Below are positions 10,849 through 15,156 of a stretch of DNA of 64,000 nt, piece by piece. The notes beneath the pieces are model-generated. The model saw only the letters and a program-made list of their open reading frames with translations. It was not told the origin of the DNA and ran no database searches. The position numbers and the translations under genes are program-made. Where the stretch lies: the NCBI RefSeq assembly GCF_988242995.1, contig NZ_OZ547043.1. The stretch is one strand, 5' to 3'. Every line of letters begins with the position of its first letter. The first letter of the stretch is position 1.

Positions 10849-12210
10849 TTAGCGACCAGGAAATCCCGGCGGCATCATACCCTTCATGCTTCTCATCATC
10901 TTCGCCATTCCGCCCTTCTTCATTTTCTTCATCATGCGCTGCATGTCGTCGAACTGTTTCAGAAGACGGTTAACGTCCTGTACCTGCATCCCGCAACCGG
11001 CGGCGATACGACGCTTACGTGAACCTTTGATGATTTCTGGCTTAGCGCGCTCTTTCATCGTCATTGAGTTGATGATGGCTTCCATACGCACCAGCACTTT
11101 ATCGTCCATCTGCGACTTGACGTTATCCGGGATCTGCCCCATGCCCGGCAGCTTGCCCATCAGGCTAGCCATGCCGCCCATATTTTTCATCTGGCGCAGC
11201 TGCTCAAGAAAGTCGTTGAGATCGAAGCCGTCGCCTTTTTTCAGCTTGCTGGCTAATTTCTCTGCCTGCGCGCGGTCAACTTTGCTTTCGATATCTTCGA
11301 TCAGTGACAGTACGTCGCCCATGCCGAGAATACGCGACGCGATGCGGTCAGGATGGAACGGCTCCAGCGCCTCAGTTTTCTCGCCAACACCGAGGAACTT
11401 GATCGGTTTGCCAGTGATGTGACGAATAGAGAGCGCCGCACCGCCGCGGGCATCGCCGTCCACTTTGGTCAACACTACGCCGGTAAGCGGTAACGCTTCA
11501 TTGAATGCTTTTGCCGTATTGGCCGCATCCTGACCGGTCATGGCGTCAACCACAAACAGGGTTTCAACCGGATTAATCGACGCATGGACTTGTTTGATCT
11601 CATCCATCATCGCTTCGTCAACGTGCAGACGACCAGCGGTATCCACCAGCAGCACGTCGTAGAATTTCAGTTTGGCTTCTTTCAGCGCCGCGTTAACGAT
11701 ATCTACCGGCTTCTGACCAACATCAGAAGGGAAGAAATCAACGCCCACCTGCTCTGCCAGCGTCTCAAGCTGTTTGATTGCCGCCGGGCGATAAACGTCG
11801 GCGGAAACCACCAGCACTTTCTTCTTGTGCTTCTCGCGCAGGAACTTACCGAGTTTACCAACGCTGGTTGTTTTACCGGCACCTTGCAGGCCCGCCATCA
11901 GCACGACCGCAGGCGGTTGCGCAGCCAGGTTCAGGGTCTGGTTCTCTTCGCCCATCGCCGCAACCAGTTCGTTACGGACGATTTTGACGAACTCCTGCCC
12001 CGGCGTCAGGCTCTTATTAACTTCATGACCAACCGCTTTCTCTTTTACGCGATTGATAAACTCACGCACTACCGGCAGAGCGACATCCGCCTCCAGCAGC
12101 GCCATGCGCACTTCGCGCAGCGTATCTTTTACGTTGTCTTCAGTGAGGCGTCCACGGCCACTGATATTGCGCAGCGTGCGCGACAAACGATCGGTTAAAT
12201 TATCAAACAT
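10849..12210 (-). CDS. ffh: Signal recognition particle protein Ffh
   Basis: 453 aa ORF; GTPase motifs GLQGAGKTT and DTAGR; Met-rich C-terminal M domain. Confidence 0.97.
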   Translation of the reverse strand: MFDNLTDRLSRTLRNISGRGRLTEDNVKDTLREVRMALLEADVALPVVREFINRVKEKAVGHEVNKSLTPGQEFVKIVRNELVAAMGEENQTLNLAAQPPAVVLMAGLQGAGKTTSVGKLGKFLREKHKKKVLVVSADVYRPAAIKQLETLAEQVGVDFFPSDVGQKPVDIVNAALKEAKLKFYDVLLVDTAGRLHVDEAMMDEIKQVHASINPVETLFVVDAMTGQDAANTAKAFNEALPLTGVVLTKVDGDARGGAALSIRHITGKPIKFLGVGEKTEALEPFHPDRIASRILGMGDVLSLIEDIESKVDRAQAEKLASKLKKGDGFDLNDFLEQLRQMKNMGGMASLMGKLPGMGQIPDNVKSQMDDKVLVRMEAIINSMTMKERAKPEIIKGSRKRRIAAGCGMQVQDVNRLLKQFDDMQRMMKKMKKGGMAKMMRSMKGMMPPGFPGR

Positions 12211-12376
12211 TGTCTCTCGCCTGGGGTGGAAACGGTTGGCCGCAATCGCGACACATCATCAGTATTTTGCCGCAGTATAACATGAAGGCGTCTTTGTTGT
12301 TATGCAACGGTTGGAGCAGCGTTCACCTGACGCTATACTGCTTCTCTTTCTTATTGCTCAAACTGTCGACATCACT

Positions 12377-13168
12377 ATGCCCGTTTTTGCTCTGCTCGCG
12401 CTTGTCGCCTACTCCGTCAGTCTTGCGCTGATTGTTCCCGGTCTGCTGCAAAAAAACGGCGGCTGGCGGCGCATGGCTATTATTTCTGCGGTCATTGCGC
12501 TGGTCTGCCACGCAATCGCTCTGGAAGCCCGCATCCTGCCCGACGGTGATAGCGGACAAAACCTCAGCCTGCTGAACGTTGGTTCATTGGTCAGTTTGAT
12601 GATCTGTACGGTAATGACCATTGTGGCTTCTCGCAATCGTGGCTGGTTGCTGCTACCCATTGTCTATGCCTTTGCGCTTATCAACCTGGCGCTGGCGACC
12701 TTCATGCCCAATGAATACATCACTCATCTGGAAGCAACGCCTGGGATGCTGGTGCACATTGGCTTATCGCTCTTTTCCTATGCCACGCTGATTATCGCCG
12801 CCCTGTACGCGCTGCAACTGGCGTGGATTGATTACCAACTGAAGAACAAGAAGCTGGCGTTTAACCAGGAAATGCCGCCATTAATGAGTATCGAGCGTAA
12901 AATGTTCCACATCACGCAGATTGGCGTGGTGCTGCTAACGCTCACGCTTTGCACTGGCCTGTTCTACATGCACAACTTATTTAGCATGGAAAATATCGAC
13001 AAGGCCGTGCTCTCTATCGTGGCGTGGTTTGTCTATATTGTGCTGCTGTGGGGACATTATCATGAAGGATGGCGTGGACGTCGCGTCGTCTGGTTTAACG
13101 TTGCGGGTGCAGTCATTCTGACACTGGCCTACTTCGGCAGCCGAATTGTCCAGCAGTTAATCAGCTAA
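12377..13168 (+). CDS. ypjD: Inner membrane protein YpjD (cytochrome c assembly/CcsA-like family)
   Basis: Multi-TM ORF; start chosen at internal Met to give 263 aa as recalled; ORF track starts at 12302. Confidence 0.75.
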   Translation: MPVFALLALVAYSVSLALIVPGLLQKNGGWRRMAIISAVIALVCHAIALEARILPDGDSGQNLSLLNVGSLVSLMICTVMTIVASRNRGWLLLPIVYAFALINLALATFMPNEYITHLEATPGMLVHIGLSLFSYATLIIAALYALQLAWIDYQLKNKKLAFNQEMPPLMSIERKMFHITQIGVVLLTLTLCTGLFYMHNLFSMENIDKAVLSIVAWFVYIVLLWGHYHEGWRGRRVVWFNVAGAVILTLAYFGSRIVQQLIS

Positions 13169-13212
13169 ACCCAGAAAAGGAGTTTCCCCTGGAACACATT
13201 TCTACTACTACG

Positions 13213-14475
13213 TTGATCATTATTCTGATCATCATGGTGGTCATTTCAGCCTATTTTTCCGGGTCCGAAACCGGAATGATGACCCTCAACCGCTATCGTC
13301 TGCGACATATGGCGAAACAGGGTAATCGCTCGGCCAAGCGCGTCGAAAAATTGCTGCGTAAGCCAGACCGCCTGATAAGCCTGGTATTAATCGGCAATAA
13401 CCTGGTCAATATTCTTGCCTCCGCGCTCGGCACTATTGTTGGGATGCGTTTGTACGGCGATGCGGGCGTGGCAATTGCGACTGGTGTGCTGACTTTTGTC
13501 GTACTGGTTTTTGCTGAGGTATTGCCGAAAACCATTGCCGCGCTGTACCCGGAAAAAGTCGCTTATCCGAGTAGTTTTCTGCTGGCTCCGCTGCAAATTT
13601 TGATGATGCCGCTGGTCTGGTTGCTGAATGCTATCACCCGTATGCTGATGCGCATGATGGGTATCAAAACCGATATCGTGGTTAGCGGCTCTTTGAGCAA
13701 AGAAGAGTTGCGCACTATCGTGCATGAGTCGCGCTCACAAATTTCCCGTCGCAATCAGGATATGCTGCTGTCTGTGCTCGATCTGGAAAAGATGACCGTT
13801 GATGACATCATGGTGCCGCGCAGTGAAATTATCGGTATTGATATCAACGATGACTGGAAATCGATTCTGCGCCAACTATCCCACTCACCTCACGGGCGCA
13901 TCGTGCTCTACCGTGATTCGCTGGACGACGCCATCAGTATGCTGCGAGTACGTGAAGCCTGGCGGTTGATGTCGGAGAAAAAAGAGTTCACCAAAGAAAC
14001 CATGCTGCGCGCCGCGGACGAGATCTATTTTGTCCCGGAAGGTACGCCCCTCAGCACGCAGTTGGTGAAGTTTCAGCGCAACAAAAAGAAAGTCGGCCTG
14101 GTCGTCAACGAATATGGAGACATTCAGGGGCTGGTGACGGTTGAAGATATTCTGGAAGAGATAGTTGGTGATTTCACCACGTCGATGTCGCCAACACTTG
14201 CCGAAGAAGTCACTCCGCAAAACGACGGTTCGGTGATTATTGATGGCACTGCCAACGTGCGGGAAATCAACAAAGCCTTTAACTGGCATCTACCGGAAGA
14301 TGATGCCCGCACGGTTAATGGCGTCATTCTTGAGGCACTGGAAGAGATCCCTGTCGCAGGCACCCGCGTGCGTATTGGCGAGTACGATATTGATATTCTC
14401 GACGTACAGGACAATATGATTAAGCAGGTAAAAGTTTTTCCTGTGAAACCGCTGCGCGAGAGTGTGGCGGAGTAA
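13213..14475 (+). CDS. yfjD: CNNM/CorC-family membrane protein (DUF21-CBS-CorC_HlyC)
   Basis: 420 aa ORF from a TTG at 13213; reading frame stays open upstream to a CTG at 13189 six nt after an AAGGAG RBS; true start uncertain. Confidence 0.8.
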   Translation: MIIILIIMVVISAYFSGSETGMMTLNRYRLRHMAKQGNRSAKRVEKLLRKPDRLISLVLIGNNLVNILASALGTIVGMRLYGDAGVAIATGVLTFVVLVFAEVLPKTIAALYPEKVAYPSSFLLAPLQILMMPLVWLLNAITRMLMRMMGIKTDIVVSGSLSKEELRTIVHESRSQISRRNQDMLLSVLDLEKMTVDDIMVPRSEIIGIDINDDWKSILRQLSHSPHGRIVLYRDSLDDAISMLRVREAWRLMSEKKEFTKETMLRAADEIYFVPEGTPLSTQLVKFQRNKKKVGLVVNEYGDIQGLVTVEDILEEIVGDFTTSMSPTLAEEVTPQNDGSVIIDGTANVREINKAFNWHLPEDDARTVNGVILEALEEIPVAGTRVRIGEYDIDILDVQDNMIKQVKVFPVKPLRESVAE

Positions 14476-14529
14476 CGAAAACGGCCCTGCATTCGCATGC
14501 AGGGCCGTGAATTATTACGAAAACAGAAA

Positions 14530-15156
<627 letters not shown>

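What the first reader, a model, noticed from the sequence alone, without database searches (positions are those of the whole stretch)
13189..13215. yfjD appears to lack an ATG start
The conserved N-terminus begins at a TTG (13213) with no RBS. The frame is open upstream to a CTG at 13189, which lies 6 nt after a strong AAGGAG. Either a rare non-ATG start is used, or a start-codon substitution relative to K-12 has occurred.
Basis: seen in the sequence. Interest (0 to 1): 0.2.

Follow-up and report, generated by a model that had tools for sequence, protein, structure and literature searches.

The report
Known CTG start codon of yfjD
The E. coli membrane-transporter gene yfjD (a CorB/CNNM magnesium-transporter homologue) really has no ATG start: it begins at a rare CTG codon behind a strong ribosome-binding site, exactly as in K-12, where this start is already curated and reported as experimentally confirmed, so the finding is correct but ordinary.

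Summary
CTG lies at 13189-13191, 6 nt after AAGGAG (13177-13182). TTG at 13213 is codon 9 and has no ribosome-binding site.

- **No substitution relative to K-12.** MG1655 is identical across the start region. Both the K-12 record (b4461) and RefSeq annotate a 428-aa yfjD from this CTG.
[quoted passage not shown] It calls it the second CTG start shown in E. coli K-12, after hda. Mutating the old TTG start had no effect.
- **E. coli population.** CTG in its exact context is present in 5,408 of 5,425 complete genomes. No genome has ATG, GTG or TTG in an otherwise identical 41-mer.
- **Other species.** In 80 Enterobacteriaceae sequences (79 species loci plus the window), codon 1 is CTG in 37, TTG in 30, GTG in 13 and ATG in none. 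Third-position-only variation starts at codon 2, and the Shine-Dalgarno sequence is conserved. CTG goes with a full AGGAG in 33 of 37 sequences; TTG or GTG does so in 0 of 43.

Verdict: a real, already known non-canonical start of low interest. The only mildly new point is that this gene avoids ATG across the family, with a stronger ribosome-binding site where the start codon is weakest.

The parts
13189..13191 (+). CTG initiation codon of yfjD (codon 1, read as fMet)
   Evidence: It is the annotated CDS start in K-12 b4461 and in RefSeq and is identical to K-12. EcoGene 3.0 reports mutagenesis confirmation. Positions 2 and 3 (TG) are invariant in 80 Enterobacteriaceae sequences, and position 1 is C, T or G but never A. 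CTG in its exact context is present in 5,077 + 331 E. coli genomes, and no genome has an ATG, TTG or GTG variant.
13177..13182 (+). Shine-Dalgarno sequence AAGGAG, 6 nt upstream of the CTG
   Evidence: Read directly from the sequence. An AGGA or AGGGA core at this position is present in all 80 sequences. The full AGGAG occurs in 33 of 37 CTG-start sequences and in 0 of 43 TTG- or GTG-start sequences. Mean predicted anti-SD duplex energy is -8.1 kcal/mol for CTG, against -5.9 for TTG and -6.1 for GTG.
13183..13188 (+). Spacer TTTCCC between the Shine-Dalgarno sequence and the start codon
   Evidence: Read directly. The spacer is C-rich (CCCC or TCCC before the start) in 31 of 37 CTG-start sequences. 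A variant with one extra C, giving a 7-nt spacer, occurs in 331 E. coli genomes including O157:H7.
13192..13212 (+). Codons 2-8 (EHISTTT), the N-terminal extension that is lost if TTG is taken as the start
   Evidence: Amino-acid identity to the window is 96-100% across 80 sequences, with variation almost only at third positions. The coding signature stops abruptly upstream of codon 1. NCBIfam equivalog NF008604 (428 positions) aligns from residue 1.
13213..13215 (+). TTG, codon 9 (Leu): the obsolete annotated start, not an initiation site
   Evidence: There is no ribosome-binding site upstream. In 80 sequences codon 9 is CTG 50, CTC 11, TTG 8, CTA 6, CTT 4 and TTA 1, so it is a synonymous Leu codon and not a conserved start. 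Mutating it had no effect on expression according to EcoGene 3.0.
13189..14475 (+). Full yfjD coding sequence (428 aa plus stop), a CNNM/CorB-type HlyC/CorC family transporter
   Evidence: Pfam finds CNNM at residues 11-184, CBS at 278-326 and CorC_HlyC at 344-418. NCBIfam NF008604 scores 866.7 bits against a cutoff of 475. The exact 428-aa protein is in the public collection, in a cluster of 10,782 member sequences.
13166..13168 (+). Stop codon TAA of the upstream gene ypjD, 20 nt before the yfjD CTG and in a different frame
   Evidence: The gap between the ypjD stop and the yfjD start is 12-30 nt in 72 of 78 sequences. A Cytochrom_C_asm (ypjD-like) gene also sits directly upstream in distant homologues.

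Best explanation
yfjD is translated from the CTG at 13189. The 30S subunit is placed by pairing of the AAGGAG at 13177-13182 with the 3' end of 16S rRNA. Initiator fMet-tRNA reads the near-cognate CUG 6 nt downstream, giving a 428-aa protein that begins fMet-Glu-His-Ile-Ser-Thr-Thr-Thr. The weak start codon behind a strong, well-spaced Shine-Dalgarno sequence, only 20 nt after the ypjD stop, most likely sets a low level of synthesis of this inner-membrane CorB/CNNM-type transporter within a ypjD-yfjD operon.

**Shown here:** the coordinates; identity to K-12; the annotation; the point where coding-type conservation begins; and the conservation and covariation of the Shine-Dalgarno sequence.

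**Taken from the literature:** functional confirmation by start-codon mutagenesis and fusions (PMC3531124, citing unpublished results), and CUG initiating at about 1-2% of AUG in reporters (bioRxiv 10.1101/063800).

**Inferred:** low expression as the purpose of the weak start; co-transcription or translational coupling with ypjD; Mg2+ efflux as the protein's function.
For: - K-12 MG1655 b4461 and RefSeq WP_010723175.1 start at this CTG, giving 1287 nt and 428 aa. The K-12 sequence is identical across the start region.
- In 80 Enterobacteriaceae sequences codon 1 is always NTG, and codons 2-10 vary almost only at third positions, whereas the upstream triplets show no coding pattern apart from the Shine-Dalgarno sequence.
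- In 35 of 37 CTG-start sequences there is no canonical in-frame start upstream. The first canonical one is codon 9, 11 or 16.
- NCBIfam equivalog NF008604 covers residues 1-427.
- The CTG context is essentially fixed in E. coli: 5,077 exact, 16 near and 331 with one extra C, out of 5,425 genomes. No genome has ATG, TTG or GTG there.
Against: - The experimental confirmation is cited only as unpublished results within a database paper.
- I found no ribosome-profiling or N-terminal proteomics record for yfjD. The Ribo-RET preprint has no supplements held as text. The TRAINSPOTTER supplements do not mention yfjD.
- CUG is a very weak start in reporters, so a minor contribution from downstream starts (TTG9, Met16) cannot be excluded from sequence alone.
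- The local RNA fold is unremarkable, with z = -0.66, so structure gives no extra support.
Confidence: 0.93

Rival explanations
1. Translation starts at the TTG at 13213 (codon 9), as in the older K-12 annotation and in mechanical ORF lists, giving a 420-aa protein.
For: TTG is the first canonical start codon of the open frame. The Pfam CNNM domain begins only at residue 11, so a 420-aa product would still hold the whole domain.
Against: There is no Shine-Dalgarno sequence in front of it. Codon 9 is CTG, CTC, CTA, CTT or TTA in 72 of 80 related sequences, so it behaves as a synonymous Leu codon. Codons 2-8 upstream of it are under protein-level constraint. Mutating it had no effect on expression.
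Confidence: 0.03
2. Translation starts at the invariant ATG at 13234 (Met16), as chosen by gene callers that do not allow CTG.
For: ATG at codon 16 is 100% conserved in 80 sequences. The representative of the 50% identity cluster, P0121, is called from this Met.
Against: No Shine-Dalgarno sequence precedes it (ATTATTCTGATCATC-ATG). Codons 2-15 show coding-type conservation. A start at Met16 would remove residues 11-15 of the CNNM transmembrane domain. EcoGene's mutagenesis assigns the start to the CTG.
Confidence: 0.03
3. The CTG is a strain-specific substitution or a sequencing error of an ancestral ATG.
For: None beyond the rarity of CTG starts.
Against: The sequence is identical in K-12. 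The exact CTG context is present in 5,408 of 5,425 complete E. coli genomes, and none has an ATG variant. CTG is also present in Salmonella, Enterobacter, Kosakonia, Raoultella and other genera, and ATG appears in none of 80 sequences.
Confidence: 0.01

Closest known systems
yfjD (b4461) of E. coli K-12, as curated by EcoGene and RefSeq
   Same: It is the same gene with an identical start region and the same CTG start. [quoted passage not shown]
   Different: Nothing differs in the start region. The window differs from MG1655 only at a few upstream sites near the end of ypjD (window 13108, 13111 and 13114).
hda of E. coli, the first chromosomal gene shown to start at CTG
   Same: A chromosomal E. 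coli gene that initiates at CUG. It is cited by EcoGene 3.0 as the first case, with yfjD as the second.
   Different: It is an unrelated cytoplasmic protein that regulates DnaA. I did not examine its ribosome-binding site or its conservation here.
infC and pcnB, E. coli genes with AUU starts (from general knowledge, not tested here)
   Same: Near-cognate start codons that hold expression low. In infC the weak codon is the sensor of IF3 autoregulation.
   Different: The codon differs (AUU rather than CUG). No regulatory role has been shown for the yfjD start.
Compensation between start codon and Shine-Dalgarno sequence (Belinky, Rogozin and Koonin 2017, PMC5622118)
   Same: That paper reports that switches to sub-optimal start codons tend to be compensated by a stronger Shine-Dalgarno sequence. 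At yfjD the weakest codon (CTG) goes with the full AGGAG in 33 of 37 sequences, against 0 of 43 for TTG or GTG.
   Different: That study treated AUG, GUG and UUG and argued for selection towards maximal initiation. At yfjD, ATG is never seen in 80 sequences despite at least 8 codon switches, which looks more like a capped initiation rate.
CorB/CNNM Mg2+ transporters (Salmonella CorB, archaeal CorB structures; PMC8242095, bioRxiv 10.1101/2021.02.11.430706)
   Same: The same domain architecture of CNNM/DUF21, a CBS pair and CorC_HlyC. A CNNM structure preprint places E. coli YfjD (P37908) in its CNNM phylogenetic tree, alongside Salmonella CorB.
   Different: Transport by E. coli YfjD itself was not assessed here. 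This concerns the protein, not the start codon.

Membership tests
Bacterial genes initiated at a near-cognate CUG codon | No canonical in-frame ATG, GTG or TTG is available at or upstream of the conserved N-terminal boundary | tested here: met
   The frame is open from the TAA at 13096-13098, and the first canonical start is the TTG at codon 9. The same holds in 35 of 37 CTG-start sequences.
Bacterial genes initiated at a near-cognate CUG codon | A Shine-Dalgarno sequence at functional spacing from the CUG | tested here: met
   AAGGAG lies 6 nt upstream and is conserved in position across 80 sequences.
Bacterial genes initiated at a near-cognate CUG codon | Protein-coding constraint begins immediately after the proposed start codon | tested here: met
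   Codons 2-10 vary almost only at third positions and keep 96-100% amino-acid identity. The upstream triplets show no such pattern.
Bacterial genes initiated at a near-cognate CUG codon | Loss of expression on mutating the CUG, and an fMet N-terminus at that position | not testable with these tools
   EcoGene 3.0 reports start-codon mutagenesis and fusions as unpublished results. No proteomic or initiation-profiling record for yfjD was found.
YfjD/CorB, HlyC/CorC (CNNM) family transporter (NCBIfam NF008604 equivalog) | Whole-protein score above the curated equivalog cutoff | tested here: met
   866.7 bits against a cutoff of 475. Residues 1-427 align to profile positions 1-427 of 428.
YfjD/CorB, HlyC/CorC (CNNM) family transporter (NCBIfam NF008604 equivalog) | Domain architecture of a CNNM/DUF21 transmembrane domain, CBS and CorC_HlyC | tested here: met
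   PF01595 at residues 11-184 (E 8e-54), PF00571 at 278-326 and PF03471 at 344-418, all above their gathering scores.
YfjD/CorB, HlyC/CorC (CNNM) family transporter (NCBIfam NF008604 equivalog) | Mg2+/Co2+ efflux activity | not testable with these tools
   Function is inferred from family names only.

The most novel reading that the evidence does not exclude
The weak start may be a maintained, possibly regulatory, feature of this gene rather than an E. coli accident.

**What the data show:**
- ATG is absent from codon 1 in all 80 Enterobacteriaceae sequences, despite at least 8 switches among CTG, TTG and GTG on the gene tree.
- 7 of 10 distant homologues (42-50% identity) are also called with non-ATG starts. 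All five confirmed to have a ypjD-like gene directly upstream are non-ATG.
- Shine-Dalgarno strength covaries with the weakness of the start codon.

**The most novel reading not excluded:** initiation at this non-AUG codon is tuned by the fidelity of start-codon selection. That fidelity depends on IF3 and on Mg2+, so synthesis of a Mg2+ exporter would rise when cytoplasmic Mg2+ is high. This would be analogous to infC autoregulation through its AUU start.

Nothing here tests that mechanism.
Probability: 0.07. Interest if true: 0.5.

Novelty: already known. Interest (0 to 1): 0.1.

Why it matters
The result matters little beyond annotation hygiene. It is a correct example of a rare CTG-initiated gene that automated callers still get wrong: mechanical ORF finding starts at TTG codon 9, and the representative of the 50% identity cluster starts at Met16.

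One practical consequence is that analyses using the old start can misplace features. The MazF cleavage site reported 17 nt upstream of the yfjD start appears to lie inside codons 3-4 of the true ORF.

The avoidance of ATG across the family, with compensation in the Shine-Dalgarno sequence, is a tidy single-gene illustration of selection on initiation strength. It could make a small test case for start-codon-based control of a magnesium transporter.

Tried and rejected
- **RNA structure around the start.** The 90-nt fold has z = -0.66 against shuffles, so there is nothing special.
- **Internal promoter for yfjD.** The simple promoter scan found no + strand promoter between ypjD and yfjD. This fits an operon but is weak evidence.
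- **Motif statistics.** AAGGAG-N6-CTG alone is not significant in the window.
- **Direct evidence of the N-terminus.** The Ribo-RET preprint has no supplements held as text. The TRAINSPOTTER N-terminomics supplements do not contain yfjD, P37908 or b4461. Literature searches for yfjD with CUG found nothing.
- **Outgroups at intermediate distance.** The search for homologous proteins listed only relatives of at least 86% identity. The single genome-contig scan kept only the best 80 loci, all of at least 87% identity. Taxa such as Yersinia, Serratia and Vibrio were therefore not sampled by name. I used representatives of 50% identity clusters instead, which come from unnamed metagenome contigs and carry gene-caller starts.
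- **Sequencing error or substitution.** Rejected.

Full report
**Context.** The window is an E. coli chromosome segment carrying ffh (-, 10849-12210), ypjD (+, ending at TAA 13166-13168), yfjD (+), grpE (-, 14530-15123) and nadK (+). The finding concerns the 5' end of yfjD.

**Observation check.**
- CTG at 13189-13191.
- AAGGAG at 13177-13182, with a 6-nt spacer (TTTCCC).
- TTG at 13213-13215 with no purine-rich sequence in front of it.

In this frame the nearest upstream stop is TAA at 13096-13098. No ATG, GTG or TTG lies between that stop and 13213.

Two details are off. The frame is open 30 codons beyond the CTG, not just as far as it. The conserved N-terminus begins at codon 2 (13192), not at the TTG. 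The bare motif AAGGAG-N6-CTG is not statistically remarkable: it occurs once against 0.26 expected, and 23 of 100 shuffles have a match.

**Comparison with K-12 and with annotation.** A 501-nt query around the site matches 5,425 of 5,426 complete E. coli genomes.
- In a strain identical to the window over that query, RefSeq annotates yfjD (WP_010723175.1, 'HlyC/CorC family transporter') from the position that corresponds to window 13189.
- In K-12 MG1655 (NC_000913.3), b4461 yfjD is annotated at 2748774-2750060, which is 1287 nt or 428 aa. Its first codon is the same CTG.
- The window and MG1655 are identical from 13112 to 13300.

The 'substitution relative to K-12' alternative is therefore wrong.

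**Literature.** The EcoGene 3.0 paper (PMC3531124, section 'CTG start codon verification') makes the following statements:
- A CTG start was predicted for yfjD from sequence conservation and the ribosome-binding site.
- Mutating the previously annotated TTG at codon 9 had no effect. This is credited to D. Dague and K. E. Rudd as unpublished results.

This is exactly the finding, already resolved. For scale, a reporter study of all 64 codons found CUG initiating at about 1-2% of AUG (bioRxiv 10.1101/063800).

I found no ribosome-profiling or N-terminomics entry for yfjD in the texts held.

**Independent comparative evidence.** One scan of species-representative genomes gave 80 Enterobacteriaceae loci at 87-100% protein identity. 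One was cut at its 5' end, leaving 79, which I analysed together with the window (80 sequences).
- **Codon 1.** It is CTG in 37 sequences, TTG in 30, GTG in 13 and ATG in none. Its second and third positions are invariant.
- **Codons 2-10.** They vary almost only at third positions, and EHISTTT keeps 96-100% amino-acid identity. The triplets upstream of codon 1 lose all coding signature except for the conserved AAGGA core.
- **Codon 9.** It is CTG, CTC, CTA, CTT or TTA in 72 of 80 sequences, so the E. coli TTG is just a synonymous Leu codon.
- **Alternative starts.** In 35 of 37 CTG-start sequences no canonical in-frame start exists upstream. The first canonical one is codon 9, 11 or 16.
- **Family model.** NCBIfam equivalog NF008604 is 428 positions long and aligns from residue 1. 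The Pfam CNNM domain starts at residue 11 and so does not discriminate between CTG and TTG.

**E. coli population.** The 63-mer 13159-13221 is identical in 4,701 of 5,425 genomes.
- **Sampled variants.** Three kinds were seen: an A-to-C change just after the ypjD stop, one extra C in the spacer in O157:H7, and a 9-bp duplication in a divergent strain. All keep AAGGAG and CTG and are annotated from the CTG.
- **41-mer centred on the start codon.** It is exact in 5,077 genomes and near-exact in 16. Seeding constraints place the mismatches of those 16 outside the start codon.
- **Extra-C haplotype.** It is exact in 331 genomes.
- **Other start codons.** The same 41-mer carrying ATG, TTG or GTG has no match.

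**Mechanism.** The best-supported reading is ordinary Shine-Dalgarno-directed initiation at a near-cognate CUG read by fMet-tRNA. It yields a 428-aa CNNM/CorB-type inner-membrane transporter.

The ypjD stop lies 20 nt upstream, and 12-30 nt upstream in 72 of 78 related sequences. No + strand promoter-like site lies between the two genes. Co-transcription, and perhaps translational coupling, is a reasonable inference but is not shown.

The local RNA fold is unremarkable, with z = -0.66.

**A modest extra observation.** Start-codon identity covaries with Shine-Dalgarno strength.
- The full AGGAG occurs in 33 of 37 CTG-start sequences and in none of 43 TTG- or GTG-start sequences.
- Mean predicted anti-SD duplex energies are -8.1 kcal/mol for CTG, -5.9 for TTG and -6.1 for GTG.
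- On a neighbour-joining tree of the coding sequences, parsimony needs at least 8 start-codon changes and at least 7 Shine-Dalgarno changes, so the association is not a single inherited event.
- The sequences are related, however, and recombination of the 5' region is possible, so this is suggestive rather than proven.

The pattern matches the general trend reported by Belinky et al. (PMC5622118).

ATG is never seen in the family. Ten distant homologues (42-50% identity, from metagenome contigs, with gene-caller starts) are called with TTG in 5, GTG in 2 and ATG in 3. The five confirmed to have a cytochrome-c-assembly-family (ypjD-like) gene directly upstream are all non-ATG. This hints that a weak start is a long-standing property of this gene.

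Whether the weak start is regulatory, for example through IF3- or Mg2+-dependent start-codon fidelity, is pure speculation here.

**Rivals.**
- A TTG9 start is contradicted by the lack of a ribosome-binding site, the lack of conservation of that codon as a start, the constraint on codons 2-8, and the published mutagenesis.
- A Met16 start is what some gene callers choose (P0121). It is contradicted by the constraint on codons 2-15, the lack of a ribosome-binding site, and truncation of the CNNM domain.
- Sequencing error or a strain-specific substitution is excluded by the population data.

**Verdict.** The 'rare non-ATG start' interpretation is correct, and the 'substitution relative to K-12' alternative is refuted. 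The feature is already known, curated and reported as experimentally confirmed, so interest is low.

Noticed in passing
window 13194-13198 (codons 3-4 of yfjD): Sauert et al. 2016 (PMC5001579, Table 1) list yfjD in the MazF regulon with the cleaved ACA 17 nt from the start. The only nearby ACA sites are 13194-13196 and 13196-13198. They lie 17 nt from the obsolete TTG start and inside the true ORF; the next ACA is 68 nt upstream of the CTG. The reported 5'-UTR cut would therefore be intragenic and would remove both the Shine-Dalgarno sequence and the CTG.
   Followed up: partly
window 13234-13236 (Met16); P0121: Gene callers that do not allow CTG mis-start this gene. The representative of the 50% identity cluster is called from the invariant ATG at codon 16, and mechanical ORF listing starts at TTG codon 9.
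   Followed up: yes
window 12302-13168 (ypjD): The longest ypjD ORF starts at ATG 12302 (288 aa). K-12 and RefSeq annotate a 792-nt, 263-aa CDS that starts at the position corresponding to window 12377. I did not check which start is real.
   Followed up: no
L003-L082, region -16 to +3 relative to the yfjD start: Start codon and Shine-Dalgarno sequence covary across Enterobacteriaceae. CTG goes with AGGAG and a C-rich spacer in 33 of 37 sequences, whereas TTG or GTG goes with AGGAA, AGGAC, AGGAT or AGGGA in 43 of 43. ATG is never used, and the gene tree needs at least 8 codon switches.
   Followed up: partly
L087-L097 (distant homologues from metagenome contigs): The gene pair of a ypjD-like (Cytochrom_C_asm) gene followed by a yfjD-like gene is conserved at 42-50% protein identity. 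Called starts are TTG in 5, GTG in 2 and ATG in 3 of 10. In L095 the caller's TTG start is probably 9 codons too far upstream of a second TTG that aligns with E. coli codon 1.
   Followed up: partly
L008, L018, L023, L024, L025, L035 (intergenic ypjD-yfjD): Six species have 104-159 nt inserted between the ypjD stop and the yfjD start, against 12-30 nt elsewhere. All six keep CTG and AAGGAG. L008 also has an in-frame ATG 7 codons upstream of the CTG.
   Followed up: no
window 13183-13188; L083: A spacer variant with one extra C (TTTCCCC, 7-nt spacing) occurs in 331 complete E. coli genomes, including O157:H7 strains. RefSeq still annotates the CTG start there.
   Followed up: yes
window 14481-14508: A 12-bp, GC-rich perfect hairpin (ACGGCCCTGCATGCGAATGCAGGGCCGT) lies between the convergent ends of yfjD (stop at 14475) and grpE. 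It is probably a shared, bidirectional terminator.
   Followed up: no
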